Part shown: piece by piece, positions 13,076-54,216 of the stretch
Position numbering within the stretch: the first letter of the stretch is position 1
How the letters are laid out: each line of letters begins with the position of its first letter
Assembly: GCA_965203565.1 (NCBI GenBank)
Contig: OZ241896.1
Location: forward strand, 41,707-105,706
Source: Vicinamibacterales bacterium
Lineage (GTDB): Bacteria; Acidobacteriota; Vicinamibacteria; Vicinamibacterales; UBA8438
Reading direction: 5' to 3'
Length of the DNA stretch: 64,000 nt
Translations under genes and position numbers: made by a program
Notes under the pieces: generated by a model
The model's database searches: none
Seen by the model: only the letters and a program-made list of their open reading frames with translations
What the model was told of the DNA's origin: nothing

Positions 13076-14393
13076 ATGGGTCTGACGTTCGGCCAAGCAT
13101 TGTCGCGGGCCGCAGGAAGGCGACGGCTGCTTTCCGGTCACCGTGATCACAGCCGTGAACGCGACGGTACTGCCATCGTCTTTGGCGACGCAAATGCGCC
13201 GGACACGGCATTGCGCGTCACGTTCGACGGCTGGATCGCAGCTACCGGTCCGGCCGAAATGGTGGCTCGGTTGCCGGAACGCAGCAATTGCGTGCTCTCG
13301 GGCATCCTCGCCTCGTCGCTGGCGGTGTCGGAGATCTTCATGTCCTGCATGGGCGTCAGCGTGGCGGCGACCCGACGTCGGATTACACACTCTCTTTGGC
13401 GTCCCGGCGCGGACGTGCTTGATCCAGAAGCGCGGGGCGTGTCGATCGAGTTTCTGCCGAGAGCACTGTGGGTGTTGGGCCTGGGACACCTTGGCAACGC
13501 ATACCTGTGGGCGATCGCCGCCTTGCAACATCCCGATCCTGGCGAGGTCGAGGTGGTCCTGAACGACTTCGATCGGGTGGAGCCCGAAAACGTCGAAACC
13601 GGTCTGCTCTTCACGAACGTCGCACGCGGACAGTTCAAGACGCGGGTGTGCAGCGCATGGCTGGAAAAGCGAGGATTCCGGACGAGGATCGTCGAACGGC
13701 GGTTCGACGAGCATTTTCGCTGTCAAGCCGACGAGCCCCGGCTCGCGCTGTGCGGCTTCGACAACAACGCTGCACGAAGGCATCTGAAGGCGGCGGAGTT
13801 CGATCGCGTGCTCGAAAGCGGTCTCGGCGGGAAGGCCGATAATTTCGACACGCTTGCCGTTCACACCTTTCCGCAGTTCCGGCGCGTGGAGGAGTTATGG
13901 CGGGACGCTTCGCCAGAAGAAATTGCCGCCGACCATGAACACCGGATGCGCGCCGCGCAACAAAGCGCGGCCTATCAGCCCGTGGCGAAAGTCCCCGCTG
14001 CATTCGAGCGGCGATGCATCCCGCCTGACGGCGTTGTTCGTCGGTTGCGTATGCCCAATATGCGCCCTCCTCACGCCTTGTCAGCCGGGCGCCTCACCGC
14101 TCTCGGCGCGACGCGGGGATTCCACCACGGGCTGCTATGCCGGTATCGGGCACGACGAGTGCGGCAGATTCACGCTGGCAGGAAAGTCCATCGCCGTGCC
14201 GTTCGTCGGAACCGCGGCGGCGAGTTTCGTGCTTGCCGAAGCGATTCGACTTTTTCATCGGGGACCCGCGTGCAACGCCGTCAAGTTGCGGATGGCCACA
14301 CCGGCCCGTACACAGGTCGTGTCGGAACGGACGTATGTCGACAGTGATATCGAACGGCTCCTCTATTCACAGGCTCCAAAAGCGCGGTTCTGA
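13076..14393 (+). pseudogene. ThiF/E1-like adenylyltransferase gene interrupted by a MITE-like insertion
   Basis: The N-part (frame of 12656..) contains the Rossmann motif LWVLGLGHLGNAYLWAIAAL and LCGFDNNAARRHL. The C-part (frame of 13854..14393) reads YAGIGHDECGRFTLAGKSIAVPFVGTAAASFVLAEAIRL. Removing 13976-14134 plus one CTAT copy (163 nt) rejoins the frames into a 384-aa ORF. The true start is uncertain (ATG 13076 or GTG 12974). Confidence 0.75.
13976..14134 (+). mobile_element. MITE-like hairpin repeat, copy 1 (159 bp)
   Basis: Begins CAGCCCGTGGCGAAAGTCCCCGC and ends GCGGGGATTCCACCACGGGCTG. Flanked by direct CTAT (13972-13975 and 14135-14138). Confidence 0.85.
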
Positions 14394-14605
14394 TTGAAGT
14401 TAGAGCGCCAACGGTTGATCGCCGAGTGGACGGCTCGCGAGTAGCGTCTGATACGCAGGTCGTCGGTATCCATGTGTTCGCCGGCAACGTAGCGTTCAAG
14501 ACCTGCCTTGACGGGATCGACACGATCCTTGACTTGCCGCACCATGTCCCCGAACGCGACGCGCGTCCAGCCGGCCTTCACGCTTCCGGCCCGCAACCGT
14601 GTCAT
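14363..14605 (-). pseudogene. hsdS: type I R-M specificity subunit (hsdS) N-terminal fragment
   Basis: The 80-aa ORF starts immediately after the vapC stop (TGAATG). GWTRVAFGDMVRQVKDRVDPVKAGLERYVAGEHMDTDDLRIRRY resembles the first target-recognition-domain opening of HsdS. Similarity is lost after about 55 aa. Confidence 0.4.
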
Positions 14606-14983
14606 TCAGAACGCGATACGCTCGATGCGATCCACCCGGTCGAAGTGCGTGTCGTTGCTCAGAACCGGAAGATCGTATTGAAGGGCGAGCGCTGCTATCC
14701 AGGCGTCGTTGGTCGGAATTGGGTTGGCTGACCGTTTCAAATCCAGACGGATGTCAGCGTAGATCCCGGCAGCCGCGTGGGTGACGGCAGCGATCTCCAC
14801 ATCTGGGAGATGGTGGCGGAGCCAGTTTTCATAACGCCGACGGCGGCTGGATTGCCGGATGCCGAAGTAGTACTCGCCGAGGACGATGCAGGGAACGACG
14901 AGACGGTGAGCGGCTCGAAGAGCGGGTTCAACGGCCGGGAGTCCTTCGGCCCATGCCGACAAGGCGTTGGTGTCGAGGATCAT
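14606..14983 (-). CDS. vapC: PIN-domain toxin VapC
   Basis: MILDTNALSAW...LGEYYFG...NDAWIAALALQYDLPVLSNDTHFDRV carries the PIN acidic residues. The start overlaps the antitoxin stop by 4 nt (ATGA). Confidence 0.85.
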   Translation of the reverse strand: MILDTNALSAWAEGLPAVEPALRAAHRLVVPCIVLGEYYFGIRQSSRRRRYENWLRHHLPDVEIAAVTHAAAGIYADIRLDLKRSANPIPTNDAWIAALALQYDLPVLSNDTHFDRVDRIERIAF

Positions 14984-15249
14984 GCGACCTCGTCGGCGGG
15001 CAGCTTCTCGAACTCGTCCTCTATCAAGGCGGCGATGCGACGGTTCTCGTCCCGGAGATCGGCCAGCGCACCGAACCCGGCCATCCAGGGCGGCTCGGCG
15101 TCGCCACCGGATGTCGTGGGCGCGGAAGCGCGGCGCAGTTTTTCGTCGAGTGCTTCGGTGACGAACTGCTTCAGAGTCACGCCGCGGTCGGCGGCCACGG
15201 CCTTCGCCTGCCGGAGCGCGGCGGCGGGCAGATCGAGCGTGGTCTTCAT
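14980..15249 (-). CDS. vapB: VapB-type antitoxin
   Basis: 89-aa ORF MKTTLDLPAAALRQAKAVAADRGVTLKQFVTEAL..., a typical small antitoxin N-terminus, translationally coupled to vapC. Confidence 0.75.
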   Translation of the reverse strand: MKTTLDLPAAALRQAKAVAADRGVTLKQFVTEALDEKLRRASAPTTSGGDAEPPWMAGFGALADLRDENRRIAALIEDEFEKLPADEVA

Positions 15250-15419
15250 GCCGGCATGTTCCCACATCCACGGGGAGCCAGGCAATTTTCCAGGCGCAAC
15301 CGACGCGGCCACGCTTGCAACCCGACCTTCACGCCGAACCCGCGAGCCGGATCGTCTTCGGCGGGCGCGCGGCCACGCTTGCAACCGGGCCCTGTGCCGA
15401 GCCCAGCCCGCGCCGGCCG

Positions 15420-16411
15420 CTACCCATCGGCCTTCTGCTCCGCCACCACGCCGTCGAGCATCTCCACCACTTCGTCCATCCGCCGCCAGAAGTCCCGGCT
15501 GCCGGCGTCGAACTCGGCCCACGCGCTCCGCAGGTCGCCGGCCGGCCGCCGCACGTAGCGCGGGATCGACAGGTTCCCGTCGTTGGCGAGCACGTCGGCC
15601 GTCGTGGCCACCGCGGCGAAGCCCGGCTCGTCGGCGAACGCCCGGTACGCCTTCAGAATCCGCTGCTGGTGCGCCGCCGTGCAGGAAGCTCTGCGCGCGC
15701 TCGCGCGCCACTTCGCGCACCGCGTCGAGGAACAGCACCCGGCCGCGGCGCTTCGGCGGCTTGCGGGTGCGGCAGACGACGACGCACGCCTCCATCGGCG
15801 AGTTGTAGAACAGGTTCGGCCCGAGGCCGAGCACGCAGTCGACGAGGTCGCGCTCGATCAGGGCGCGGCGCATCGCGGCCTCCTCGTTGCGGAACAGGAC
15901 GCCGTGCGGGAAGAGGATGGCGCAGCGGCCGGTCCGCGCGGAACGCGTTCCGCAGCGCCCGGCCGACGTCGCGCGCCGCCCCGCGGACGTCGGACCAGTG
16001 GGCGCCGTCCGGGATGGCGAACCGGTCGTCGGCCGGCGCCCGCGCGTAGCCTTCGTCGCCGGTCTCGTCGAGGGCGGCGCGGCGCTCCTCGTCCCAGACG
16101 TCGGAGAGGCGCTTGAAGAAGAGCAGCGTGAAGGCGTATTGCTTGTAGTCGCCGGCGTCGACCAGCCCGCGCAGGAGGTTGGCGGCGCCCCAGAGGTACG
16201 ACTCCAGCGCCGGCCGGCCGAGGCGTTCGACGGGTGCGCTTACCAGCCCGTGGCGGAAGTCCCCGCTGCATTCGAGCGGCGATGCATCCCGCCTGACGGC
16301 GTTGTTCGTCGGTTGCGTATGCCCAATATGCGCCCTCCTCACGCCTTGTCAGCCGGGCGCCTCGCCGCTCTCGGTGCGACGCGGGGTTCCACCACGGGCT
16401 GTTACGGTCAC
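15420..16411 (-). pseudogene. hsdM: type I R-M methyltransferase hsdM, degraded (MITE insertion, internal deletion, frameshift)
   Basis: The HsdM_N-like part reads LESYLWGAANLLRGLVDAGDYKQYAFTLLFFKRLSD. It joins near 15930-15950 directly to GRCAILFPHGVLFRNEEAAMRRALIERDLVDCVLGLGPNLFYNSPMEACVVVCR...RGRVLFLDA. After a 1-nt frameshift near 15665 comes TAAHQQRILKAYRAFADEPGFAAVATTADVLANDGNLSIPRYV. Only about 276 codons remain, against roughly 500 expected. The GTG start overlaps the upstream vapC stop, and the MITE sits after codon 3. Confidence 0.75.
16244..16401 (+). mobile_element. MITE-like hairpin repeat, copy 2 (158 bp)
   Basis: Same termini as copy 1. Flanked by direct TTAC (16240-16243 and 16402-16405). 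Four differences from copy 1. Confidence 0.85.
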
Positions 16412-16836
16412 GCCAGCGGATTCTTCCACCGCAGGCCGGGGAACCGCGCCATGTCGGCATCGGTCGAGTGGAGCTCCGCCTGGTGCTCGATCGCCAGGGC
16501 CGCCAAGTGCGCGTCAGTGGTCAGGTTGCCCGCCACGCCGACTGCGTCGAGAAGGTCGAACAGGATGTCGGCGTGACGGTCGCCCGGGTGGATGAGGATG
16601 GCCTGCGGCCGGGCAATCCACGAGCGGACGCGGCTGCATGCGCCGCCGACGTCAAGGGGGTTCTGGAGGATCCTCCCATGCGTCGTGACACGAATGAAAC
16701 CGAGGATGGCGTTCCAGGGAAGGCCCACGCTGGTCGTCCCGCTCAACAGCGTTTCCCACCAAGCTCGCGCGGCGTCGTGTCGGCGCGACGTCGCATCGTG
16801 GGCGTAGACCAGCAGGTTGACGTCGGGAACGATCAT
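16408..16836 (-). CDS. vapC: PIN-domain toxin VapC
   Basis: MIVPDVNLLVYAHD...WNAILGFIRVTT...NLTTDAHLAALAIEHQAELHSTDADMARF. The start overlaps the antitoxin stop by 4 nt. Confidence 0.85.
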   Translation of the reverse strand: MIVPDVNLLVYAHDATSRRHDAARAWWETLLSGTTSVGLPWNAILGFIRVTTHGRILQNPLDVGGACSRVRSWIARPQAILIHPGDRHADILFDLLDAVGVAGNLTTDAHLAALAIEHQAELHSTDADMARFPGLRWKNPLA

Positions 16837-17180: not shown

Positions 17181-17470
17181 TTTGCGACCTCCAGAAATGC
17201 TCTCGCAGTCATACTATCGGTGCATGTTAGCACGATCCGTCGTTTCCAGCGCGCTCCGAGCCACTCGCGCCCGGCGGCGAGGAACAGCGTCTTGCCGCGG
17301 CGCTTCGCCGGCGAGCAACTGGGTCATATACTCGTTCCGGTGTCCGGTTCCCCCGCGATGATGCAGGATGACGGAATGCGTATGACGCTGAACCTCCCGC
17401 CGGAACTGCTCGACGAAGCGCATCGGTCCGACGCGCGCTGCGGCGTCGGGCGCGCTGCTCGCGCTCAGCA

Positions 17471-17742
17471 TTCTCGCTCATCGGCCGCATCGGGTTCGGC
17501 GCGCCTCGGCCGGCGCTCCCGCCCTCGCCCTGGCTGGATCGGGCGCCTTTGCCCTACCAGCCCGTGGCGAAAGTCCCCGCTGCATTCGAGCGGCGATGCA
17601 TCCCGCCTGACGGCGTTGTTCGTCGGTTGCGTATGCCCAATATGCGCCCTCCTCACGCCTTGTCAGGCGGGCGCCTCACCGCTCTCGGTGCGACGCGGGG
17701 ATTCCACCACGGGCTGCTACGCGCAGGTGGACGCCGCCGCCG
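17471..17742 (+). pseudogene. 3-prime remnant of a second autotransporter-like adhesin gene, carrying MITE copy 3
   Basis: 17471-17557 aligns to 23615-23701 (76 of 87 nt by manual alignment). It translates FSLIGRIGFGAPRPALPPSPWLDRAPLPY, against FSLIGRIGFGAPRTALPPAPWMNPPSLHY in the intact gene. 17717-17742 continues the match to 23698-23725. Confidence 0.7.
17558..17716 (+). mobile_element. MITE-like hairpin repeat, copy 3 (159 bp)
   Basis: Flanked by direct CTAC (17554-17557 and 17717-17720). Two differences from copy 1. Confidence 0.85.
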
Positions 17743-17896
17743 GCCTCCTCGCCACGCCTCCGGGCGCAGAAGGCGAATGCGGGTCACCTCGAAATCGGGA
17801 TCACTGCAAGTGATGAATCCATGCTATTGTGGACCGTTTGCCTCGTGCCGGTTTCTTCTTCTGTGGCCAACATGCTCATGAATTCCCTGCGGCCCC

Positions 17897-20800: not shown

Positions 20801-23734
20801 GTGACGTCGAACGTGACGTTGACGTTCACGCTGACGGTGACGGCGGGCGGGGACAGCGTGACGGACACGGTGGACGTCACGGTGACGCCGCGGGCGCCGG
20901 GGACGCCGGTGAACCGGCCGCCGGCGATCACGCTCTCCGGCGACCGGACGTATCGGCAAGGGGAGCGGGTCTCGCCGTTCATCGTCGCGGCGAGCGACCC
21001 GGACGGCGACGCGGTGGAGGTGGAGGTGGTCGGTCTGCCGCCGGGCCTGCGGCACGGGGGCGGGCTGGTGGAAGGGACGGTGGCGGCCGACGCGGCGGCG
21101 CAGGTCCACCGGGTGACGGTGACGGCTTCCGACGGCGTGGCGGCTCCGGTGCGGGCGACGTTCACGGTGACGGTGACGGCGCCGGATCGGGAGCCGGACC
21201 GGCCGCCGACGGGGGAGGCGCCTCCGGACCTGCGGCCGTCGTTCGCGGGGGTTCCGCCGGTTTCGCGGCAGTACCGGGTGGGCCGTCCGGCGGCCGGTTC
21301 GGCGCTGCCGGCGGCCGCAGGGGGCGACCGGCCGCTGCGGTACGAGCTGACGCCGGCGCCGCCGGCGGGCCTGCGGTTCGACGGCGGGAGCCGGACGTTG
21401 ACGGGGACGCCGACGGCCGAGCAGCGGCCGGCGCCCTGGACGCTGACGGCGACCGACGCGGACGGCGACACGGCGACGCTGGAGGTGACGATGGCGGTGC
21501 TCGACCCGCCGGTGGTGACCGGCCTGCGGCTGGTGTCGCAGCCGGCGGCGGGGGACACGTACGGGTACGGGGAAGCGGTCGCGGCGGAGGTGGCGTTCAG
21601 CGAGCCGGTCGAGGTGGCGGGGGCGCCGACGCTGGGACTGACGGTCGGCTCGGCGGTGCGGACGATGCGTCTGACGGGCGCCGAGGGTCCGCGGCTGCGG
21701 TTCGGGTACCGGGTGTCGGAGACCGACCTGGACGAGGACGGCGTGAGCGTGTCGGCGGACGCGCTGGCGCTGGGCGGCGGCCGGATCACGGACGCGCTGG
21801 GGACGGCGGCCGAGTTGGGGCATGCGGGTCTGGCGGGCCAGGCGGGACACCGGGTGGACGGGCGGCCTCGGGCGGTGGGGACGCTGCGCACGGTGACGGT
21901 GGTGCTGGGCGGCGCGGCGGCGCGGGTCGAGCTGTCGGGCGCGTTCCGGGGAGCGGAGACGTATGCGGCGGCGGTGGCGGACGGGTCGCTGGCGGCGGTG
22001 GAGGTGGACGGTTCGTCGGCGGTGGTGACCGGGTTGGCGGAGGGGACGACGACGGTGACGGTGACGGGCCGGAACGCGGGAGGTTCGGCGGAGCAGCGGT
22101 TCGGGGTGGTGGTGACGGCGTCGGCGGCGGAGCGCGAAGTGATGGTGTCGACGCTGGCGGGGGTGGGACGGAGCCTCCTGGCCGGCGCGTCCGCGACGGT
22201 GGGACGCCGTCTGGACGGGAGCGGCGGCGGCGGGGCGCCCGAGGCGCAGGCGTCGCTGGCGGGCCGGACGCTGCCGCTGGCGGGCGGCCCGGCGTCGGCG
22301 GCGGGGCGGACGGCGTGGCTGCGTCCGGAGGCGGGGACGTGGTCGCCGGCGGCGGCGTCTGCGGCGCCGGCGCTGGACCGGCCGCGGGCGGCGGCGCGGC
22401 GGGCGGCGGTGCGGGCGGGACTGACCACGGCGCAGGGCGGGCGGCTGACGGGCGAGGAGCTGCTGTTCGGCAGCGCGTTCACCTTCTCCGGCGGCGGGAC
22501 CGGCCAGGCGGCGGCCGAGGCCGGGCCGGGCGCGGGCGGCGGGCTGCGGTGGACGGCGTGGGGAGCGGGCGACCGGCAGTCGTTCCAGGGAACGGCCGGC
22601 TCGGGTGCGACCTACGACGGGCGGCCGGCGACGGCGGCGGCGGGGGTGGACGTCGAGCGGGGCCGCCTGCTGGCGGGGGTGGCGGTGGCGCGGAGCGTGG
22701 CCGATGCAAACTATGCGTTCCGCGACGCGGCGGAGGGCGTGAGCGGGCAGGGCGCGGTGGCGACGCGGCTGGTGACGGCGCAGCCGTATGCGCGGTGGGC
22801 GCTGGACGAGCGGACGTCGGTGTGGGGCGTGTTCGGCGCCGGCTGGGGCCGGGCGGAGGTGGCGCGGTCGGTGACGGCGGCGGCCGAATCGGCCGACCTG
22901 GCGGTGCTGATGGGACTCGGCGGCGTGCGGCGGGAACTCGGGCCGGCCGGCGGGCTGGAACTGGCGCTGCGGGGCGACGTGGGCGGGGCGTGGCTGGAGA
23001 CCGGCGGCGGCGGCGGCGGCCTGCTGGCGGGGCGGCGGGTGGCGGTGCACCAGTCGCGGCTGGGCCTGGAGATCGGACGGACGTTCGGAACGGGGCTGAC
23101 GGTGCGGCCGTTCGCGGCGGTGAGCGGACGGTACGACGGCGGGGCGGGGGCGACGGGGACGGGGCTGGAGGTGGCGGGCGGATTGCGGGCGTCGGACGGG
23201 GCGGGACGCGTCGAGGTGGAGGCGTCGGGGCGGGTGCTGGCGCTGCACACGGAGTCGGGATACCGGGAGCGGGGAGTGAGCGTGCGGGCGCGGCTGACGC
23301 CGGGAGGCGACCCCGGACGGGGGCTGTCGGTCGAGGTGACGCCGCGGTGGGGGGCGCCGCAGATCGGCGCGGAGACGCTGTGGCGGGACCAGGCGCTCGG
23401 CGCGGCGGCGGGCGGCGGCCGGCCGGAGACCGGCGCGCTCGATGCGCGGGTGGGATACGGACTCGGACTGCTGGCGCCGTTCGCGGAGATGGGATGGGCG
23501 GAGGACGCGCAGCGGCAGCGGCTCGGCCTGCGGGTGGGGCAGTTCGGCGACGCCGTCGACGTCGAGGTGACCGGCGAACGGTACGCCTTGCTCGGACGCC
23601 CGACCGACCACCGCTTCTCGCTCATCGGCCGCATCGGGTTCGGAGCGCCTCGGACGGCGCTCCCCCCCGCGCCCTGGATGAATCCGCCGTCCTTGCACTA
23701 CGCGCAGGCGGACGACGCCGCCGAGACGCCGTAG
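17897..23734 (+). CDS. giant surface adhesin: signal peptide, 4 Calx-beta, 5 PKD-like, Ig-like repeats, autotransporter-like beta-barrel
   Basis: 1945-aa ORF.
- The signal-like N-terminus is RRRPFRATRLAVGLLIAAVPWTFAADA.
- Four ~115-aa repeats match Calx-beta: SV.EGDSGSTNLNFTV.LSAAS...TATSGTDYT...F..G.TS.TITV.V.GD...E..ETV.
- Five ~95-aa repeats are PKD-like: ANAGPDQTV.EG..V.L.G.GS...Y.W.QT.G..VTLTGATTATPSFTAP....TLTFTLTVT.
- Two putative Ig (PPGL...GT) domains and a Big_2-like domain follow.
- The C-terminal ~500 aa are Gly/Ala/Arg-rich with alternating-pattern strands ending FSLIGRIGF. Confidence 0.85.
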   Translation: MLTPPPPPPDLIPADARRRPFRATRLAVGLLIAAVPWTFAADADAQTLPVLSIDSPSVVEGDSGSTNLNFTVTLSASSTSQVTVAYADAGTGTATSGTDYTALTAGMLTFAAGTTSRTITVSVTGDTSHESHETVVVTLSNPTNATVSATAGSGTGTIRDDEGLTLSVNSPTVAEGDSGSTNLNFTVSLSAASTQNVNVIFGITGGTATAGTDYTTSLTNNRIRLRFRPGQTSKTITLAVQGDTLDEPDETVLVALSGASFNARITTGTGTGTITDDDPLPTLSIDSPSVTEGDSGSTDMIFTISLSAASGREVRMAYGIYPGDGTATANTDFTGIDGFRFFTFAPGETSKTFTVEVLGDTDPEADETVGIRLAAGPANAVLGGNGRGVGTITDDDIAFLRTGPASVAEGDSGSTNLNFTVSLAAASGKTVTVDYADTGRGTATSGTDYTALAAGTLTIAPGDTSGTITVEVTGDEVVERPETVLLTLSNPTNARFLIASMASLTGTIRDDDGFPVANAGADQTVSEGATVTLSGSGSDPDGTPVSGYRWTQTAGPAVTLTSATTATTSFTAPTGLAADETLRFSLVVTAGFEGGSDSVDILVNAANPNWTAEAGPNQTVEEDDAVTLSGRTLSGGADLTLQGVMQPGYSWRHTSGGGSTVRLTGAATASPRFTAPNLLADATLTFTLTVTVGNDTMTDTVDVTVQADNDDPAANAGPDQTVYEGGAVTLPGRGSDPEGESLSYSWSQTEGPNVTLTGALSPTARFTAPLVTSDVTLTFTLTVTAGGATATDTVAVTVEPLVLMANAGPDQVVDEGDAVRLDGTGSTAPLGAGPLIYSWSQTGGSPSVTLTGATTATPSFTAPSGLTADVTLTFTLTVTVGGEGAASETDTVEVTVEWIGPVGAPTVLTADAGEDRTVDGGDAVRLDGSGSTAPPGEELRWSWRQTGGGPSVTLTGATTATPSFTAPDVTSNVTLTFTLTVTAGGDSVTDTVDVTVTPRAPGTPVNRPPAITLSGDRTYRQGERVSPFIVAASDPDGDAVEVEVVGLPPGLRHGGGLVEGTVAADAAAQVHRVTVTASDGVAAPVRATFTVTVTAPDREPDRPPTGEAPPDLRPSFAGVPPVSRQYRVGRPAAGSALPAAAGGDRPLRYELTPAPPAGLRFDGGSRTLTGTPTAEQRPAPWTLTATDADGDTATLEVTMAVLDPPVVTGLRLVSQPAAGDTYGYGEAVAAEVAFSEPVEVAGAPTLGLTVGSAVRTMRLTGAEGPRLRFGYRVSETDLDEDGVSVSADALALGGGRITDALGTAAELGHAGLAGQAGHRVDGRPRAVGTLRTVTVVLGGAAARVELSGAFRGAETYAAAVADGSLAAVEVDGSSAVVTGLAEGTTTVTVTGRNAGGSAEQRFGVVVTASAAEREVMVSTLAGVGRSLLAGASATVGRRLDGSGGGGAPEAQASLAGRTLPLAGGPASAAGRTAWLRPEAGTWSPAAASAAPALDRPRAAARRAAVRAGLTTAQGGRLTGEELLFGSAFTFSGGGTGQAAAEAGPGAGGGLRWTAWGAGDRQSFQGTAGSGATYDGRPATAAAGVDVERGRLLAGVAVARSVADANYAFRDAAEGVSGQGAVATRLVTAQPYARWALDERTSVWGVFGAGWGRAEVARSVTAAAESADLAVLMGLGGVRRELGPAGGLELALRGDVGGAWLETGGGGGGLLAGRRVAVHQSRLGLEIGRTFGTGLTVRPFAAVSGRYDGGAGATGTGLEVAGGLRASDGAGRVEVEASGRVLALHTESGYRERGVSVRARLTPGGDPGRGLSVEVTPRWGAPQIGAETLWRDQALGAAAGGGRPETGALDARVGYGLGLLAPFAEMGWAEDAQRQRLGLRVGQFGDAVDVEVTGERYALLGRPTDHRFSLIGRIGFGAPRTALPPAPWMNPPSLHYAQADDAAETP
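17906..17922 (+). repeat. C17 homopolymeric tract at codons 4-9 of the adhesin ORF
   Basis: Counted directly: 5+10+2 consecutive C. It encodes PPPPPP in the frame of ATG 17897. Confidence 0.95.
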
Positions 23735-27842: not shown

Positions 27843-27893
27843 TCGGATGATCCTGTCGAATCTTTCCGGAAGGGTTGGCGAAGGAGTACGCGG

Positions 27894-33826: not shown

Positions 33827-35824
33827 ATGCAGTTCGCCGCGAAGCGTCCGGCGCGGCGGCGCCGGCTTCTGTTTGCGTTCCCCGCAGGCATTGCGGGCGT
33901 CGCCCTCCTGGGAACGCTCCTGATCCTGCTTCGCGAACTGAATTGGGGCGTCGGCCTGTGGTTCGATTCGCTCAGCTACCTGTTGCGCGCACGACGGATG
34001 CTGGCGGGCCCCGGCTGGCTGGTCAGCATCTCCGGCACACAAGCTCCTTTCTATCCGCTCCTGCTGGCGCTGCTGGGAACGTCGGGATTCGATCTGGTCC
34101 GCATCGCCGGGCTCGTGAACGCCGCGGCGTTCGGCCTGACGATTCTGGTCTCGGCCCTGTGGCTGAAGAACAGGCTCGAATCCCGCCTGATCGTCCTGTG
34201 GGCGGCCGCCGCCATCATGCTGTCGGTCCCGCTCACGAACTTGGCGTCGCAGGTGATGTCCGAGCCGGTATGCATCCTGTTCACGGTGCTTGCCCTGATG
34301 CGGGCGGAGAAGTTCCTGAGATCCGGACATTCCGGCGAGCGTTCGTCGTTGGTGTGGGCGGCGTTGTTTTCCGCGCTCGCTTTTCTGACGCGTTACATCG
34401 GCGGCGCCGTCGTTCCCGTCGTCGCAGCGCTGCTTCTGATCCGCAAGGGCGCGAGCCTCACGGAAAAGACGCGGCAGGCCGCGATCTACTCGGCCATTTC
34501 CATCGCGCCGACCGGTCTTTGGCTGTTGCGCAACTTCCTGTTGTCGGGATCGCTCACGTGGGATGCATCCACGCTCTACCGTCCGCGCACGGGGTTGCCG
34601 CAAAACCTGGTCTGGACGTTCGAGGCGCTTGCCGGCTGGATCTTTCCCCTGTCGCGGTCCGGCGAATCCGCGGCGCCGATGCTGTGCCTCCTGTCCGCGG
34701 CCGCGGCGGGATGCCTGCTGCGCCTGTCGGGTTCGGAGTCCGGGTCCGCCGGCGGGGCCGCGGCTCGATCCGGCCGGATATTCCTGCTCTTTTCGTCGGC
34801 CTACGTCGTCCTGCTCGTCGCATCCGGGTTCGTCGTGGAGATCGAAAGCGGAAATTTCAGCAGGTATCTCTCGCAAGTCTACGTCCCGATGGTCATCGCC
34901 GCGGCGCTTGCCGCGGACCGGCTGCTGACCCGCGCCGGTCGTCCGCTCTCGGCGCGACGCGGGATTCCACCACGGGCCGTGAAGCCCGCCGGCGCCGTCC
35001 TGATCGCATCGATGCTCCTCTGGCTGCACTACCCGGCCATGGAAAACGCCCGAGCGGCGGCCACGCACTTCACCCGCGGTTTCGGGTATGCATCCGAGCG
35101 CTGGCGCCATCACGACGTGCTGGAATACCTCGCGAGGAATCCGGTGGACGACCCGGTCCACACCAACCTGTTCGAACTGGCGGAATTTCATACCGGCCTT
35201 CGAACCAGGATGATGCGAGTGCGGTTTCAACTGGACGAGGCGCTGAACGGGCCGCCGGCCTTCATCGTCTACTTCCGGGAAACGCGGTCGGAGGATCTCG
35301 CGCCGCTCATCGAGAGTCTGCCGGAGGTGGAGACGAAGTTTCGCGGCCGCGACGGGGCCGTCTACCACTTCGCGCTGCGCGGGCGGCGCAGCCTGGACCA
35401 GATAGTCGGGGAGTCCGAGCCGATCATCCGCTCCGGCCGCTACGCCGTCCATCTCGACGAAGACCGGTTGGTGTACGTGCGGAATGCGCCCGACAGAGGC
35501 GACGACGCCGGCCTCCGGTTCTTCCTGCACGTCGTCCCGGCGCAGACGGAGAACCTGCACTGGGCGAGGCGGTGGCTCGGGCGCCGGCAATTCGATTGGG
35601 GAGAGTCCTGCGCCTGGCGAAGCGGCGGGAGATGCGCGGTGGTGGTCGGGCTGCCGAAGTACGACGTCGCATCGATCACGACCGGTCAATACCGGGCGGG
35701 GCCGAACCGGGAGTATGGAGACCTGACGTACGGCCGTTCGGCGAAGGTCGTCTGGAACTTCATCACCACCGGTCGATTCGCTCTCGAGGACCGCGTATGG
35801 GAAGGCGAATACCGTTTTCCCTGA
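33827..35824 (+). CDS. GT-C/ArnT-like polytopic membrane protein with soluble C-terminal domain
   Basis: 665-aa ORF with about 10 or more hydrophobic helices in the first 400 aa. The C-terminal domain carries RFFLHVVP...LP.YDVASITTGQY, shared with ORF 47002..49011. It is visibly lower in GC than its neighbours. Confidence 0.7.
   Translation: MQFAAKRPARRRRLLFAFPAGIAGVALLGTLLILLRELNWGVGLWFDSLSYLLRARRMLAGPGWLVSISGTQAPFYPLLLALLGTSGFDLVRIAGLVNAAAFGLTILVSALWLKNRLESRLIVLWAAAAIMLSVPLTNLASQVMSEPVCILFTVLALMRAEKFLRSGHSGERSSLVWAALFSALAFLTRYIGGAVVPVVAALLLIRKGASLTEKTRQAAIYSAISIAPTGLWLLRNFLLSGSLTWDASTLYRPRTGLPQNLVWTFEALAGWIFPLSRSGESAAPMLCLLSAAAAGCLLRLSGSESGSAGGAAARSGRIFLLFSSAYVVLLVASGFVVEIESGNFSRYLSQVYVPMVIAAALAADRLLTRAGRPLSARRGIPPRAVKPAGAVLIASMLLWLHYPAMENARAAATHFTRGFGYASERWRHHDVLEYLARNPVDDPVHTNLFELAEFHTGLRTRMMRVRFQLDEALNGPPAFIVYFRETRSEDLAPLIESLPEVETKFRGRDGAVYHFALRGRRSLDQIVGESEPIIRSGRYAVHLDEDRLVYVRNAPDRGDDAGLRFFLHVVPAQTENLHWARRWLGRRQFDWGESCAWRSGGRCAVVVGLPKYDVASITTGQYRAGPNREYGDLTYGRSAKVVWNFITTGRFALEDRVWEGEYRFP
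34943..34977 (+). repeat. 35-nt relic of the MITE right arm embedded in-frame in a CDS
   Basis: CCGCTCTCGGCGCGACGCGGGATTCCACCACGGGC matches the last 36 nt (minus the terminal TG) of the repeat with one 1-nt deletion. It is translated as LSARRGIPPRA in a predicted loop. Confidence 0.7.
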
Positions 35825-37480: not shown

Positions 37481-37506
37481 CGAATCGGCCAGGCGGCTGG
37501 TTTCAC

Positions 37507-37664
37507 AGCCCGTGGTGGAATCCCCGCGTCGCGCCGAGAGCGGTGAGGCGCCCGCCTGACAAGGCGTGAGGAGGGCGCATATTGGGCATATGCAACCGAC
37601 GAACAACGCCGTCAGGCGGGATGCATCGCCGCTCGAATGCAGCGGGGATTTTCGCCACGGGCTG
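37507..37664 (-). mobile_element. MITE-like hairpin repeat, copy 4 (158 bp, inverted orientation)
   Basis: Flanked by direct TTCA (37503-37506 and 37665-37668). The right-hand TSD contains the mfd stop codon (TCA = TGA on the minus strand). Confidence 0.85.
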
Positions 37665-49011: not shown

Positions 49012-49023
49012 GAGATGGCTACG

Positions 49024-49038
49024 CAGCCCGTGGTGAAA
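49024..49038 (+). repeat. solo MITE left terminal repeat (15 nt)
   Basis: CAGCCCGTGGTGAAA is identical to the first 15 nt of copy 5. It lies 3 nt from the atpA stop codon (49042-49044). Confidence 0.55.
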
Positions 49039-49041
49039 CGC

Positions 49042-50571
<1,530 letters not shown>

Positions 50572-51273: not shown

Positions 51274-52143
51274 CTACCGGGCGGTGAGCTGCTCGAACAG
51301 CCGCTGGAGCTCCGCTTCGGAGCCGAAGTGGATCTGGATCCGCCCCCCCTCGCGCCGCCGGACTATCTCCACTCGGGCGCCGAGTGCGACGCGCAGCCGT
51401 TCGGCCGCCGCCTGCGTGTTCGGGTCGGAAGACGCGGGCGGCGGGGACGGAACGGGCGCAAGGCGCTTCTTGACCAGCAGCTCGGTGTCGCGGACCGACA
51501 GGCCGCGGACCCGGACGTCGTGCGCGGCCCGGCGCTGCGCGGCGGCGTCGGGCAGGCCGAGCAGGGCCCGCGCGTGCCCCATGCTGAGCGCGCCCGACGA
51601 GACGTCGGACTGCACTTCGGGCGGCAACGCCAGCAGGCGCTGGTAGTTGGCCACCGTCGCCCGGTCCTTGCCGACCGCCTGGGCGATCTCCTCCTGGGTC
51701 AGGCGCAGCTCGTCGGCCAGCCGCTTGTACGCGCGGGCCTCCTCGATCGGGCTGAGGTCTTCCCGCTGGACGTTCTCGACCAGCGCCATCTCGAGCCGCT
51801 TCGCATCCGGCACGTCCCGGACGACGACCGGGACCTTCAGCAGTCCCGCCCGCTGCGCGGCGCGCCACCGCCGCTCGCCCGCGACGATCTCGTAGGCTCC
51901 GCCATCTCCGGGGCGGACCACGATCGGCTGGATGACGCCGCTCCCGCGAATCGACTGCGCCAGCTCGTCCAGCCTGGCGTCGTCCATGATGCGGCGCGGC
52001 TGATCGCGGTTCGGCGCGAGCAGGTCGAGATCGACTTCGGCCGGGGCGTCCGCGGGCGCCCGCCCCGGAGCGGCCTCCGGAGCGGGGACCTCCGGAATCA
52101 GCGCGCGCAGGCCGCGGCCGAGCGCGGGGCGTTTGTCAGGCAC
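51274..52143 (-). CDS. parB: chromosome partitioning protein ParB
   Basis: LGRGLRALIP, NRDQPR, GVIQPIVVRP, and the HTH region TQEEIAQAVGKDRATVANYQRLL. Confidence 0.95.
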   Translation of the reverse strand: MPDKRPALGRGLRALIPEVPAPEAAPGRAPADAPAEVDLDLLAPNRDQPRRIMDDARLDELAQSIRGSGVIQPIVVRPGDGGAYEIVAGERRWRAAQRAGLLKVPVVVRDVPDAKRLEMALVENVQREDLSPIEEARAYKRLADELRLTQEEIAQAVGKDRATVANYQRLLALPPEVQSDVSSGALSMGHARALLGLPDAAAQRRAAHDVRVRGLSVRDTELLVKKRLAPVPSPPPASSDPNTQAAAERLRVALGARVEIVRRREGGRIQIHFGSEAELQRLFEQLTAR

Positions 52144-52957
52144 GCTCTATTCTCCTCGGGTCTTCCCTTCCGGCGTCTTCGGGGCGCGCCGCCGCGCCGA
52201 GTATCTCGCGGGCCAGGGCGAGATACGCTTCCGCGCCCCGAGATTTTCTGTCGTATGACAGAGCAGGGAGTCCGTGACTGGGCGCCTCACCCAGACGGAC
52301 GTTGCGCGGAATGACGGTGTCGAACACCTTCTTCGCAAAGAATTCCCGCACGTCGGCCGCCACCTGCCGGCCGAGGTTCGTGCGCGAATCGGCCATCGTC
52401 AGGAGCACGCCGCCGATCTCCAGATCGGGGTTGAGGCTGGCGCGGACCCGCTGCAGCGTCGCCGTCAGCTCGGCCAACCCCTCGAGAGCGAAGAATTCGC
52501 AGGTGAGCGGGATCAAGACCTCGTCGACCGCGACGAGGGCGTTGAGCGTGAGCAGGCCAAGCGAAGGGGGAGTATCGACGAGCACGTAGTCGAACCGGCG
52601 TCGGGCCGCGGCGACGAACGGGCGCAGACGCAACTCGCGTCTCGGCAGGTTCACCAGCTCGATCTCCGCACCGGTCAGGTGGCGGTTGGCGGGCGCCAGC
52701 GACAGGTTGGTGACCGCCGTCGGGATGACGAAGTCGTCCACGTCGATCTCGACGTCGGTCGTCAGCGCGTCATAGACCGTTCCCCCCGGCGCCGGCCGGC
52801 CTTTCAGCCCGACGCCGCTGGTCAGATTCGACTGCGGGTCGAGGTCGACGAGCAGCACCGTGCGGCCGAGACGGCAAAGCGACGCCGCCAGATTGATGGC
52901 CGTCGTCGTCTTGCCGACGCCGCCTTTCTGGTTCGCGACGGCGACCGCCCGCTTCAT
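52136..52957 (-). CDS. parA: chromosome partitioning ATPase ParA/Soj
   Basis: The deviant Walker A is NQKGGVGKTTTAINLAA, and DYVLVDTPPSLG is present. It overlaps parB by 8 nt. Confidence 0.95.
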   Translation of the reverse strand: MKRAVAVANQKGGVGKTTTAINLAASLCRLGRTVLLVDLDPQSNLTSGVGLKGRPAPGGTVYDALTTDVEIDVDDFVIPTAVTNLSLAPANRHLTGAEIELVNLPRRELRLRPFVAAARRRFDYVLVDTPPSLGLLTLNALVAVDEVLIPLTCEFFALEGLAELTATLQRVRASLNPDLEIGGVLLTMADSRTNLGRQVAADVREFFAKKVFDTVIPRNVRLGEAPSHGLPALSYDRKSRGAEAYLALAREILGAAARPEDAGREDPRRIERA

Positions 52958-52999
52958 CGCCGGGTCTCATGGCGCGGCAGGGCCGGCGAAAAAGCGCAC

Positions 53000-53047
53000 C
53001 AGCCCGCGCAGGAATTCTCCGCTGCATTCAAGCGGCGCTGCATCACC
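53000..53047 (+). repeat. degenerate left half of the MITE-like repeat
   Basis: CAGCCCGCGCAGGAATTCTCCGCTGCATTCAAGCGGCGCTGCATCAC compares with the consensus CAGCCCGTGGCGAAAGTCCCCGCTGCATTCGAGCGGCGATGCATCCC. It lies 43 nt upstream of the parA start. Confidence 0.5.
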
Positions 53048-53248
53048 GGATGGAACCCAAACCGACAACGAGAAACAAGGCCCACAACATCAGCAAACCA
53101 CCGGGAACATGAGGCCGAGAGCGGATCTGCCAGCCGTCGAAACCGCCTCGTTCCCGAAAGCTATCACCGCTACGCCCCGCGTGGGACTCCACCACTGACT
53201 TGGTAAAAAGTACCGACTTTCCCAAGCCGTCGTCAACCGCAGGTGAAT

Positions 53249-53264
53249 TGTTCCACGTGGAACG
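53249..53264. promoter_or_regulatory. parS: parS-like centromere site
   Basis: TGTTCCACGTGGAACG contains the perfect 14-bp palindrome GTTCCACGTGGAAC. This is a GC-shifted version of the parS consensus TGTTTCACGTGAAACA. It lies about 290 nt upstream of parA. Confidence 0.7.
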
Positions 53265-53330
53265 TCGGGCGCCGGCCCGACGACGCTGCTGGTCGAGGCG
53301 GGGTTGTATTTTCGTATTTTGTTCGTTTTT

Positions 53331-53987
53331 TCAATCCGGCAGCTTGCGCAGCACCACGAGCTGACTGCCCGGACTCTCCGTCAGGGGGTGCGCCGCCCGC
53401 AATGCAAGGCGCGGCGACGACGACCAGGCCGCCCCCGTTCCGTCGTCGCCCGCGGTGAACAGCAACAGATCTCCGCCGTCGCGCACGAACGTCCGCCACG
53501 TCCGCAACGCCGGCCCGTCCGCGCGGACGCCGCGGACAGTGAGCGCGTCGAACGTCCCGCGCAGCGCCGGGCGCCGGGCGAGCACGTCCTTGAACCGCCC
53601 GGTCTCGACCGACGTGCGCGGCAATCCGAGCCGCCGGACCACGTCGCGCAGGAAGGCGGCCTTCCGCGCCTTCGCCTCGATCATCACCATCGAGCCCCCT
53701 CGCATCGCCAGTCGGAGCGGAATGGCGGGCGACCCGCCGCCGGATCCGACGTCGAGCACCTTGCCGGCGGAACCGGCGAGATGCCGGGCGGCCAGCAGCG
53801 GTTCGACGATCAGCCGGTCCACGCCCCGGTCGTCATCGCCCAGCGCCGTCAGGTTCATCCGTGCGTTCCAGCGCCGCAGCGCCGCGACGTAGGCGCACAA
53901 ACCGTCCAGCACGGGGCCGGGAACGTCCTCCAACCCCACGCGGGCTGCGCGTCGCCGGATCCGTTCCGCCAACTCGCCGCCGGCCAT
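53331..53987 (-). CDS. rsmG: 16S rRNA (guanine527-N7)-methyltransferase
   Basis: The start at 53985-53987 is MAGGELAERI. The SAM motif is VLDVGSGGGSPAIPL, and NLTA is present. The upstream part of the ORF-track ORF is read through the MITE. Confidence 0.85.
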   Translation of the reverse strand: MAGGELAERIRRRAARVGLEDVPGPVLDGLCAYVAALRRWNARMNLTALGDDDRGVDRLIVEPLLAARHLAGSAGKVLDVGSGGGSPAIPLRLAMRGGSMVMIEAKARKAAFLRDVVRRLGLPRTSVETGRFKDVLARRPALRGTFDALTVRGVRADGPALRTWRTFVRDGGDLLLFTAGDDGTGAAWSSSPRLALRAAHPLTESPGSQLVVLRKLPD

Positions 53988-54058
53988 TTTCCGTCTGCGC
54001 GAAGCCCGTGGCCCGGCGGGTCGCCAGGTCGTCCTCGAGCGGCCCGGCCGCTGACTAG

Positions 54059-54216
54059 CAGCCCGTGGTGAAAGTCCCCGCTGCATTCGAGCGGCGATGC
54101 ATCCCGCCTGACGGCGTTGTTCGTCGGTTGCGTATGCCCAATATGCGCCCTCCTCACGCCTTGTCAGCCGGGCGCCTCGCCGCTCTCGGTGCGACGCGGG
54201 ATTCCACCACGGGCTG
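54059..54216 (+). mobile_element. MITE-like hairpin repeat, copy 5 (158 bp)
   Basis: Flanked by direct CTAG (54055-54058 and 54217-54220). The right-hand TSD contains the jag stop codon (CTA = TAG on the minus strand). Confidence 0.85.

What the first reader, a model, noticed from the sequence alone, without database searches (positions are those of the whole stretch)
13976..54216. Unclassified 159-bp hairpin MITE-like repeat: five near-identical full copies plus four relics in 64 kb
Full copies lie at 13976-14134, 16244-16401, 17558-17716, 37507-37664 (inverted) and 54059-54216.
- By my manual alignment they differ from one another by only 2-5 substitutions or 1-nt indels, about 97-99% identity.
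- Each begins CAGCCCGTGG(C/T)G(A/G)AA(G/A)TCCCCGC and ends GCGGG(G)(A)TTCCACCACGGGCTG. These are roughly 22-bp imperfect terminal inverted repeats.
- The interior is itself an imperfect palindrome. GAGCGGCG pairs with C(G/A)CCGCTC, and CCCGCCTGAC pairs with GTCAG(G/C)CGGG. The whole unit can therefore fold into one long hairpin, as DNA or RNA.
- Every full copy is flanked by a perfect 4-bp direct duplication: CTAT, TTAC, CTAC, TTCA, CTAG.
- No transposase, integrase or reverse transcriptase gene is in the window, so the element looks non-autonomous.

I do not recognise it as a known IS end, REP/BIME unit or named RNA family. High copy identity suggests recent activity. The T/A-containing 4-bp duplications are reminiscent of DDE transposases with YTAR-type targets (for example some IS5-family members), but that link is only an inference.
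Basis: seen in the sequence. Interest (0 to 1): 0.8.

Follow-up and report, generated by a model that had tools for sequence, protein, structure and literature searches.

The report
Active hairpin MITE of soil Acidobacteria
The repeat is a real, recently mobile, non-coding "miniature" transposon (MITE) of uncultured soil Acidobacteria (Vicinamibacterales) that shares its ends and its 4-bp CTAG-type target with a 1.46-kb IS5/IS1182-type insertion sequence. It is a well-supported but ordinary kind of element.

Summary
Five 158-159-bp copies are present (95-98.7% identical), and each is flanked by a perfect 4-bp direct duplication. Each folds into one long hairpin (z = -8 to -9).

The family is not confined to this window. 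It occurs in about two dozen species-level Vicinamibacterales MAGs, in size variants from 56 to 319 bp that all keep the same ~23-bp termini. Flanking 4-bp duplications are perfect in 46 of 92 elements, against 1-2 of 92 in shifted controls. The target consensus is C-T-A/G-G.

Two window copies are insertion polymorphisms. Other assemblies that encode the identical neighbouring protein carry exact empty sites with a single TTCA, or with GTAG where the filled alleles have CTAG.

A partner element was found. It is a 1458-bp IS with 16-bp inverted repeats CAGCCCGTGGTGAAAG and CTAG/TTAG duplications. It encodes a 455-aa DUF772 + DDE_Tnp_1 transposase of the IS5/IS1182 superfamily. Its left end matches a window copy at 23 of 23 bases. 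A decayed copy of this IS lies in a MITE-rich Vicinamibacterales MAG.

This is a new member of a known kind.

Side findings:
- The hairpin shows compensatory changes.
- 23% of copies sit exactly on a stop codon.
- A group II intron homes into the MITE terminus.

The parts
13976..14134 (+). MITE copy 1 (159 bp). 4-bp duplication CTAT at 13972-13975 and 14135-14138.
16244..16401 (+). MITE copy 2 (158 bp). Duplication TTAC on both sides.
17558..17716 (+). MITE copy 3 (159 bp; used as the reference copy). Duplication CTAC on both sides.
23615..23730 (+). Paralogous 'empty site'. This stretch matches the left flank of copy 3 (17471-17557) joined directly to its right flank, with a single CTAC and no element.
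   Evidence: family D20; alignment A5
37506..37664 (-). MITE copy 4 (159 bp), between the convergent radical-SAM gene and mfd. Duplication TTCA at 37502-37505 and 37665-37668. The copy is absent from 7 other assemblies that encode the identical radical-SAM protein; four of them were aligned and show an exact empty site with a single TTCA.
54059..54216 (+). MITE copy 5 (158 bp), inserted on the TAG stop codon of jag (R3H protein), upstream of rsmG. Duplication CTAG. Filled in 5 and empty in 3 other assemblies that encode the identical R3H protein. Its first 23 nt are identical to the left end of the 1458-bp IS.
34943..34979 (+). Relic: 37 nt of the right end of the element (positions 122-157, 94% identity). 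It lies inside a 665-aa ORF.
   Evidence: (D18)
53000..53200 (+). Degenerate old copy in the rsmG-parA spacer. The left end matches at 82% over 45 nt; the right end reads ...GGGACTCCACCACTGAC. The end coordinate is approximate.
49025..49040 (+). Solo terminus CAGCCCGTGGTGAAAC between two minus-strand genes (weak relic).

Best explanation
[quoted passage not shown] It has no coding capacity. All it carries is two copies, in inverted orientation, of a ~23-bp terminus, CAGCCCGTGG(C/T)G(A/G)AA(G)TCCCCGC. This terminus is the left-end inverted repeat of a 1.46-kb insertion sequence of the IS5/IS1182 (DDE_Tnp_1) superfamily.

**Proposed mechanism.** The IS transposase, supplied in trans from elsewhere in the genome, binds the two termini. 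It inserts the element at CTAG-like tetranucleotides (consensus C-T-A/G-G) with a 4-bp staggered cut, and repair of the cut gives the 4-bp duplication.

**Why copies sit at gene ends.** CTAG contains the TAG stop codon and is otherwise rare in a 70% G+C genome. Many copies therefore land exactly on the stop codon of a gene. The duplication preserves that stop codon, so such insertions are tolerated.

**The hairpin.** The interior is a nested palindrome, so the whole element is one hairpin. The apex can be deleted (56-92-bp minis) or extended by further small palindromes (176-319 bp) without loss of the termini or the duplications.

**Shown:** the structure, the duplications, the target consensus, the insertion polymorphisms, the identity of termini and target between MITE and IS, and the conserved DDE triad.

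**Inferred:** that this particular transposase mobilises the MITE, and that it does so in the window's genome.
For: **Mobility**
- Exact filled and empty alleles exist in assemblies that encode identical neighbouring proteins. For copy 4, seven other assemblies have the short 60-bp spacer. The four that were aligned show an exact empty site with a single TTCA.
- Copy 5 is filled in 5 and empty in 3 other assemblies.
- A paralogous empty site with a single CTAC exists for copy 3.

**Target duplication**
- 46 of 92 complete elements are flanked by a perfect 4-bp repeat and 25 of 92 by a repeat with one mismatch. Shifting the register by 1 or 2 bases gives 2 of 92 and 1 of 92. Only 2 of 92 extend to 5 bp.
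- All size classes carry duplications, including the 56-92-bp minis.
- Target composition is C 31/46, T 35/46, A 28/46 (G 12/46), G 25/46.

**Partner IS**
- L108 2419-3876 is 1458 bp, flanked by CTAG on both sides. Its ends are CAGCCCGTGGTGAAAG / CAGTCCGTGGTGAAAG.
- Its ORF has DUF772 (65 bits), DDE_Tnp_1 (35.7 bits) and DDE_Tnp_1_6 domains.
- The same IS lies at 5 different CTAG sites.
- A 92%-identical transposase sits in 1458-bp copies with perfect 16-bp inverted repeats and CTAG or TTAG duplications.
- A 57%-identical transposase (L111) has a left end that matches the MITE consensus at 23 of 23 bases, next to CTAG.
- The first 23 nt of the IS are identical to window 54059-54081.
- D149, D292 and E357 are invariant in 7 relatives.

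**Same host lineage.** An internally deleted copy of the IS (TTAG|CAGCCTGTGGCGAAAGTC...ATGGCGATGGGCAAG...) lies in L081. This MAG, Vicinamibacterales bab29b19, carries many MITE copies.

**Amplification within lineages.** Identity is 97-98% within a genome against 90.5% between genomes.

**Relatives behave the same way**
- The pLB1 element, annotated 'IS5 family transposase' and 50% identical, has CAG... termini and a CTAA duplication.
- Planctomycetota copies have CTAG on both sides.
- ISPse1 of the IS1182 family has 16/16 inverted repeats and a 4-bp repeat (PMC3281130).
Against: - No intact transposase gene with these termini was found in the window or in the 95 eight-kb genome stretches. 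The Vicinamibacterales copy that was found is decayed.
- The intact IS copies sit on short soil-metagenome contigs of unknown taxonomy, some with lower G+C (61-64%) than the MAGs.
- The right end of the IS shares only 16 nt with the MITE. Both MITE ends look like the IS left end, so the MITE is not a simple internal-deletion derivative.
- The transposase scores below the curated NCBIfam cut-offs for IS1182 (166 bits against 270) and IS5_4 (104 against 140).
- No experiment shows trans-mobilisation.
Confidence: 0.88

Rival explanations
1. It is a REP/REPIN-type extragenic palindrome. Such elements are spread by a RAYT (an IS200/IS605-like HUH tyrosine transposase) acting on single-stranded hairpins.
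For: - The whole element is a hairpin, and it is intergenic and abundant.
- Compensatory changes keep the stem.
Against: - REP/REPIN insertion does not make target duplications (own knowledge of the family). Here 4-bp duplications are the rule, and the empty sites are exact.
- The termini equal those of a DDE-type IS.
- The element is 56-319 bp with 23-bp terminal inverted repeats, not a 20-40-bp unit with a GTAG or CGTC head (compare PMC3733652, listed).
Confidence: 0.02
2. It is primarily a functional structured RNA or regulatory module, such as a 3'-end stabiliser, a terminator or a small RNA. Its hairpin is under selection, and mobility is secondary or historical.
For: - 11 stem pairs show changes on both sides, against 3.2 in shuffles and 2-5 in slid controls.
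- 21 of 92 copies abut a stop codon.
- Copies are enriched between convergent genes (28) and tandem genes (37) over divergent genes (10).
- A conserved promoter-like CTGACA-N16-CATATT lies inside every copy tested.
Against: - No Rfam match.
- No T-tract or terminator-like site (0 found).
- The placement on stop codons follows from the CTAG/TGA-like target itself.
- Insertions are polymorphic between near-identical strains, so individual copies are not needed.
- The double changes can also arise from DNA-level processes in a palindrome, or from shared ancestry of subfamilies. The tool's own caveat is that related sequences can beat every shuffle.
Confidence: 0.07
3. It is a MITE, but it is mobilised by a different transposase from the one found here. 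For example, by another IS that happens to share the first ~16-23 nt, or by a now-extinct IS.
For: - No intact partner was found in a Vicinamibacterales genome stretch.
- The IS clade is very large (at least 8000 homologues) and occurs in several phyla with similar CAG..GTGG termini.
- L107 shows the same 23-nt terminus next to unrelated DNA.
Against: - The 23 of 23 identity of termini, the identical 4-bp CTAG/TTAG target and the decayed copy in a MITE-rich MAG all point to this clade.
- Copy 4 is private to one strain, so an active enzyme must exist now.
Confidence: 0.1

Closest known systems
Bacterial MITEs derived from IS5-superfamily insertion sequences (for example MITEAba12 of Acinetobacter, PMC6382973, listed)
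   Same: - Short and non-coding.
- Terminal inverted repeats are shared with an IS that encodes a DDE transposase.
- Target duplication has the same length as that of the IS.
- Many dispersed copies, mostly intergenic.
   Different: - The duplication here is 4 bp at CTAG-like sites.
- The whole element, not only its ends, is a hairpin.
- Both ends copy the IS left end.
- The family spans 56-319 bp through apical deletions and added palindromic modules.
- The host is an uncultured order of Acidobacteria.

Details of MITEAba12 beyond its abstract are from my own knowledge and were not checked.
The 1458-bp IS found here and its annotated relatives: the 'IS5 family transposase' element of plasmid pLB1 (AB244976) and ISPse1 (IS1182 family)
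   Same: - 16-bp inverted repeats that begin with CAG.
- 4-bp duplications at CTAG, TTAG or CTAA.
- A DUF772 + DDE_Tnp_1 transposase of about 450 aa.
   Different: - The MITE lacks the gene.
- It shares 23 nt with the IS left end but only 16 nt with the right end.
- The transposase is only 50% identical to the pLB1 protein and is below the curated cut-offs of both NCBIfam models.
Correia elements of Neisseria and ERIC/YPAL elements of enterobacteria (own knowledge)
   Same: - About 100-170 bp.
- The entire unit is an imperfect palindrome.
- High copy number and intergenic location.
- Size variants exist.
- Some copies carry promoter-like sequences.
   Different: - Those elements duplicate TA, and no parent transposase is known for them.
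- Here the duplication is 4 bp and a matching IS exists.
- There is no sequence similarity, and Rfam and plasmid searches found nothing.
REP / BIME / REPIN elements with RAYT transposases
   Same: - Extragenic palindromes.
- Mosaic build from small palindromic modules.
- Location at the 3' ends of genes.
   Different: - REP elements lack terminal inverted repeats of the IS type and lack target duplications.
- They depend on an HUH enzyme. Here a DDE-type mechanism is indicated.

Membership tests
MITE (miniature inverted-repeat transposable element) | Small size (tens to a few hundred bp) and no coding capacity | tested here: met
   The 92 complete elements are 56-319 bp, with a mode of 158-159 bp. 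A 159-bp all-hairpin unit leaves no room for a gene.
MITE (miniature inverted-repeat transposable element) | Terminal inverted repeats | tested here: met
   The ~22-23-bp termini are conserved in all size classes. Columns 1-10 and 17-23 are nearly invariant in 39 copies.
MITE (miniature inverted-repeat transposable element) | Target-site duplication of fixed length | tested here: met
   The duplication is 4 bp. 46 of 92 are perfect and 25 of 92 have one mismatch; shifted controls give 1-2 of 92; only 2 of 92 reach 5 bp.
MITE (miniature inverted-repeat transposable element) | Multiple dispersed copies and insertion polymorphism (filled and empty sites) | tested here: met
   More than 95 matching stretches in about 24 MAGs. 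Exact empty sites exist for copies 4 and 5, and a paralogous empty site for copy 3.
MITE (miniature inverted-repeat transposable element) | An autonomous element with the same termini and the same target duplication | tested here: met
   A 1458-bp IS whose left end matches at 23 of 23 bases, with CTAG/TTAG duplications. Co-residence of an intact copy with active MITEs in one genome was not shown; only a decayed copy was found in L081.
MITE (miniature inverted-repeat transposable element) | Mobilisation in trans by that transposase | not testable with these tools
   Needs a transposition assay or in-vitro binding.
IS1182 family (partner IS) | Transposase reaches the curated NCBIfam score for NF033551 | tested here: not met
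   166.4 bits against a cut-off of 270. It is nevertheless the best-scoring model.
IS5 family (partner IS) | Transposase reaches the curated NCBIfam score for an IS5 model | tested here: not met
   IS5_4 scores 104.4 bits against a cut-off of 140. The other IS5 models score far lower.
IS5/IS1182 superfamily (Pfam DDE_Tnp_1 type) | DUF772 N-terminal domain plus a DDE_Tnp_1 catalytic domain above Pfam gathering scores, with a conserved D, D, E triad | tested here: met
   DUF772 scores 65.3 bits (cut-off 23.1). DDE_Tnp_1 scores 35.7 (cut-off 23). DDE_Tnp_1_6 scores 26.9 (cut-off 25.1). D149, D292 and E357 are invariant in 7 relatives. Assigning these residues as the catalytic triad is an inference from the motif context.
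IS5/IS1182 superfamily (Pfam DDE_Tnp_1 type) | 4-bp duplication at YTAR-like targets with short inverted repeats, as in the IS5 group and some IS1182 members | tested here: met
   CTAG/TTAG in the IS copies. CTAA in the pLB1 relative. ISPse1 has a 4-bp repeat and 16/16 inverted repeats. E. coli IS5 ends were read for comparison; they show only a loose resemblance (GTGCGAA..AAGTCCC) that did not score above noise in my alignment.
REP/REPIN-RAYT | No target duplication; a 20-40-bp palindromic unit with a conserved tetranucleotide head; an associated RAYT gene | tested here: not met
   Duplications are present. The termini are those of a DDE IS. No RAYT gene was looked for beyond the ORFs that adjoin unpaired termini.
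Rfam RNA families | Match at the gathering score to any covariance model | tested here: not met
   0 matches in the 64-kb window.

The most novel reading that the evidence does not exclude
Beyond being a parasite, the element may have been co-opted. Its full-length hairpin is kept by compensatory changes across about two dozen species. A quarter of the copies sit exactly on stop codons. Every copy carries a promoter-like CTGACA-N16-CATATT.

The family could therefore act as a portable 3'-end RNA stabiliser or attenuator, or as an outward promoter, shaping gene expression across a whole order of abundant soil bacteria. In addition, its terminus serves as the dedicated multicopy homing site of a group II intron, that is, one mobile element specialised on another.
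Probability: 0.15. Interest if true: 0.55.

Novelty: new member of a known kind. Interest (0 to 1): 0.35.

Why it matters
- **A marker for an uncultured group.** Vicinamibacterales are among the most abundant soil bacteria and are hardly cultured. A currently active, high-density MITE (5 full copies and 3 relics in 64 kb) with a defined partner IS provides strain-level markers, because filled and empty sites differ between near-identical populations.
- **Assembly.** It explains assembly breaks and intergenic length variation in these MAGs.
- **A testable system.** A 56-bp minimal substrate with a 455-aa transposase and a 4-bp CTAG-type target is simple enough to test directly.
- **Tolerated insertions.** Insertion on stop codons shows how a target preference can make a transposon nearly harmless in a G+C-rich genome.
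- **Conceptual value.** None of this changes how MITEs are understood. The value is descriptive and practical.

Tried and rejected
- **Paired termini in the genome stretches.** I looked for pairs of termini 0.6-6 kb apart in the 95 genome stretches. The recurrent ~2.15-kb pairs turned out to be MITE copies split by a group II intron, not an autonomous element.
- **ORFs next to unpaired termini.** I tested these ORFs in L006, L028, L030, L045, L072, L082, L083, L084, L088 and L091 with Pfam. They are ordinary genes (hydrolase, nucleoside transporter, TelA, QueF and others), with no transposase.
- **E. coli IS5.** tblastn with the E. coli IS5 transposase against all loci found nothing. Direct alignment of the IS5 ends with the MITE ends gave a loose resemblance that did not exceed noise.
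- **Other collections.** blastn of the consensus against 72,556 plasmids and a pattern scan of viral contigs gave no hit.
- **Syntenic locus L090.** It is too diverged to serve as an exact empty site. It shows only that insertions are not orthologous between species.
- **Cluster names.** Names for the transposase homologues gave no taxonomy.
- **Long contigs with relatives of the L111 transposase.** One of these contigs carries a Planctomycetota bin label and the other is a GenBank assembly (GCA_029260315.1) of unstated taxonomy. Neither contains a MITE copy.
- **Literature.** Searches for the terminus sequence and for MITEs in Acidobacteria or Vicinamibacter found no description of this family.
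- **Terminator idea.** No stem plus T-tract was found at the copies.

Full report

Yes. The repeat finder and blastn recover five full copies: 13976-14134, 16244-16401, 17558-17716, 37506-37664 (inverted) and 54059-54216.

In the alignment with flanks, similarity starts and stops sharply at CAGCCCGTGG... and ...CCACGGGCTG. Each copy is bracketed by a perfect 4-bp direct repeat: CTAT, TTAC, CTAC, TTCA and CTAG. Pairwise identity is 95.0-98.7%.

Either strand folds into one hairpin that spans the whole unit. The energies are -97.4 and -104.5 kcal/mol (z = -8.4 and -9.3), and none of 200 shuffles folded as well. The terminus is strongly over-represented, with 9 matches against 0.27 expected.

Of the 'four relics' I can vouch for three:
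- a 37-nt right end at 34943-34979;
- a degenerate whole copy at about 53000-53200;
- a solo 16-nt terminus at 49025-49040.

The window has about 70% G+C.

**2. Distribution**

Nearly all come from MAGs labelled Vicinamibacterales or Vicinamibacteria (Acidobacteriota), about 24 different species-level genomes. Two isolated 22-nt matches, in a 'delta proteobacterium' MAG and in Novosphingobium, are not elements.

These stretches and the window together hold 92 complete elements, of 56-319 bp:
- 158-159 bp is the commonest size;
- further clusters lie at about 90, 176-179 and 215-217 bp.

All variants share the outer ~25-50 bp of both arms. Short variants lack the apex symmetrically (for example positions 1-51 joined to 115-159). 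Long variants carry extra small palindromes near the apex. No Rfam family matches. The plasmid and viral collections have no hit.

**3. Evidence for transposition**

*Target duplications.* The 4 bp on either side are identical in 46 of 92 elements and differ at one base in 25 of 92. Shifting the register by 1 or 2 bases gives 2 of 92 and 1 of 92. Only 2 of 92 extend to 5 bp. Every size class shows duplications, down to 56 bp.

*Target preference.* The duplicated tetranucleotide is biased: C 31/46, T 35/46, A 28/46 (G 12/46), G 25/46. CTAG is the commonest, followed by CTGG/CCAG.

*Copy 4.* Seven other assemblies encode the identical 511-aa radical-SAM protein, including a 1.15-Mb contig of a close relative. 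All have a 60-bp spacer to mfd, where the window has 223 bp. Four of them were aligned. They show that the window equals the empty allele plus the element plus a second TTCA, with identical flanks.

*Copy 5.* Among assemblies that encode the identical 155-aa R3H (jag) protein, five are filled and three are empty. The empty alleles read GTAG where the filled ones have CTAG on both sides. This is a synonymous difference in the last codon of jag, so the element sits in a haplotype that offered CTAG.

*Copy 3.* Window 23615-23730 is a paralogue of the two flanks of copy 3 joined together, with one CTAC.

*Lineage-specific amplification.* Copies are more alike within a genome (97.2% in the window; 98.0% among nine copies in MAG CAXXVU02) than between genomes (90.5%). 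A syntenic but diverged locus (L090) has an element where the window has none.

Insertions are therefore lineage-specific and recent.

**4. The partner**

*Negative results first.* No pair of termini in the 95 stretches enclosed a transposase.

*The scan that worked.* I scanned metagenome contigs for the 23-nt terminus followed by two bases that no MITE end has. This gave nine stretches. Five of them carry the same continuation, each next to CTAG at a different site.

*The IS itself.* In L108 the element is complete:
- it spans 2419-3876, 1458 bp, with CTAG on both sides;
- its ends are CAGCCCGTGGTGAAAG and CAGTCCGTGGTGAAAG;
- it has one ORF of 455 aa.

The protein has DUF772, DDE_Tnp_1 and DDE_Tnp_1_6 domains above the Pfam thresholds. 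In NCBIfam it is closest to the IS1182 model (166 bits, cut-off 270) and then to IS5_4 (104 bits, cut-off 140). It belongs to the IS5/IS1182 superfamily but passes neither curated family test.

*Close relatives.*
- A transposase 92% identical lies in 1458-bp copies with perfect 16-bp inverted repeats and CTAG or TTAG duplications at several sites.
- A second lineage (L111, 57% identity) has a left end identical to the MITE consensus over 23 nt, again next to CTAG.
- Three residues that fit the DDE triad (D149, D292, E357) are invariant in seven relatives.

*Wider clade.*
- The clade is very large, with at least 8000 homologues at E < 1e-30.
- It occurs in other phyla with the same CAG...GTGG termini and CTAG target.
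- The nearest annotated plasmid relative (pLB1, 'IS5 family transposase', 50% identity) has CAG... termini and a CTAA duplication.
- ISPse1 of the IS1182 family has 16/16 inverted repeats and a 4-bp repeat (PMC3281130).

*Link to the MITE.* The first 23 nt of the L108 IS are identical to the left end of window copy 5. A decayed, internally deleted copy of this IS lies in L081, a stretch of a MITE-rich Vicinamibacterales MAG. It has a TTAG flank, terminus CAGCCTGTGGCGAAAGTC, the start codon context ATGGCGATGGGCAAG, and 65% identity over a 60-aa fragment.

*Origin of the MITE.* The IS right end shares only 16 nt with the MITE. Both MITE ends resemble the IS left end. The MITE therefore looks like a fold-back of one IS end rather than a simple deletion derivative. 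This last step is inference.

**5. How it most likely works**

A DDE transposase of this IS clade, made elsewhere in the genome, recognises the two ~23-bp termini. It integrates the element at CTAG-like sites with a 4-bp stagger.

The steps shown are the termini, the target, the duplications, the polymorphism and the existence of a matching IS. The steps inferred are that this enzyme is the one acting, and that an intact copy is present in the window's genome.

Placement of copies relative to genes:
- In 21 of 92 elements the duplicated tetranucleotide contains the stop codon of a long, high-GC3 ORF. One example is window copy 5 on the TAG of jag.
- Elements are more frequent between convergent genes (28) or tandem genes (37) than between divergent genes (10). 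This count rests on a crude ORF caller.

I read this as the target preference meeting selection against harmful insertions, not as evidence of function.

**6. The hairpin**

On 39 copies of the 158-159-bp class, 93.8% of stem cells pair. Eleven pairs show changes on both sides (for example GAGCGGCG/CGCCGCTC becoming GAGCAGCG/CGCTGCTC, GACGGGCG/CGCCCGTC or GAGCCGCG/CGCGGCTC). Shuffles give 3.2 such pairs and slid controls give 2-5.

Palindromy is therefore maintained. This could reflect a requirement of the element, DNA-level correction within a palindrome, or shared descent of subfamilies. The data do not separate these.

There is no terminator-like stem plus T-tract at the copies. Each of the three copies in the scanned region contains the same weak promoter-like CTGACA-N16-CATATT.

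**7. Comparison with known systems, and verdict**

The element meets every sequence-level criterion of a MITE. Its partner is a member of the IS5/IS1182 superfamily.

It resembles Correia and ERIC elements in being a full-length hairpin. It differs from them in its 4-bp target and in having an identifiable parent IS. It is not a REP/REPIN element, because it makes target duplications.

I found no description of this family in the searchable literature. ISfinder could not be queried.

The novelty is that of a new family of a well-known kind. The interest is modest. It is raised somewhat by the clean evidence of current activity in an uncultured, ecologically dominant group, and by the group II intron that targets the MITE terminus.

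**8. Side finding**

In three different MITE copies, from two MAGs, a group II intron is inserted at the same point of the terminus: CAGCCCGTGGTG^AAACCCCGCG.
- It encodes a protein with RVT_1 and GIIM domains.
- Rfam matches RF02003 in all three copies and RF00029 in one.
- It begins GTGCG and ends CTAC.

The MITE terminus thus serves as a multicopy homing site. The intron splits the transposase-binding end of the copy it occupies.

Noticed in passing
L048 ~4310-6300 (-), L032 ~130-2125 (+), L089 from ~6508 (+): A group II intron (RVT_1 + GIIM protein; Rfam RF02003 in all three, RF00029 in L032) is inserted at the identical position of the MITE terminus (CAGCCCGTGGTG^AAACCCCGCG). This occurs in three different MITE copies from two MAGs. 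The MITE end appears to be the intron's multicopy homing site.
   Followed up: partly
window 14057-14084, 16325-16352, 17639-17666 (minus strand, inside copies 1-3): Each of these three copies carries the same weak sigma-70-like motif, CTGACA-N16-CATATT (9 of 12 positions match the consensus). The region has 3 such sites against 0.4 expected. No terminator-like site is present. This is a consensus match only; whether it drives transcription is untested.
   Followed up: no
window 34943-34979: A 37-nt fragment of the MITE right end lies inside a 665-aa ORF (33827-35824, no Pfam match). Gene callers also call this ORF in other assemblies. It may be an old insertion absorbed into a coding region.
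   Followed up: no
window 13028-17880: Three MITE copies cluster in a 4.8-kb stretch with weak coding signal. The stretch holds two PIN-domain (VapC-like) ORFs and a fragment of an N6 DNA methylase. It looks like a decaying variable island.
   Followed up: partly
window ~51300-57300 (minus strand): This is the chromosomal origin-proximal gene cluster rpmH-rnpA-yidD-yidC-jag(R3H)-rsmG-parA-parB, and related contigs show dnaA next to it. MITE copy 5 and the degenerate copy at about 53000-53200 sit in its spacers. The rsmG-parA spacer varies in length (302, 313 or 375 bp) between near-identical assemblies.
   Followed up: partly
window 47002-49060 compared with L090: The window has about 2 kb that the syntenic Vicinamibacterales locus L090 lacks. 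This stretch holds a 669-aa ORF with no Pfam match. A solo MITE terminus lies at its edge (49025-49040).
   Followed up: no
window 17897-23734 and 27875-32635: A 1945-aa protein made of Calx-beta and PKD-like repeats accounts for many of the direct-repeat families in the window. Separately, there is a run of four diverged paralogous genes spaced 1.0-1.5 kb apart.
   Followed up: partly
L092 223-541, L094 7549-7774, L035 5076-5273: Long MITE variants contain copies of other short repeat modules (GTAGGGGCAACCCTTGTGGTTGCCC... and CAGCAGAATTC...GCAGAATTCTGCGGGG). A second small repeat family appears to be nested in the MITE apex.
   Followed up: no
L107 ~1100-2616 (-): The same 23-nt terminus, next to CTAG, is followed by DNA with a 602-aa ORF instead of a transposase gene. 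From my reading of its sequence, the ORF resembles DUF222/HNH-type proteins. It may be another non-autonomous passenger of the same IS ends.
   Followed up: no
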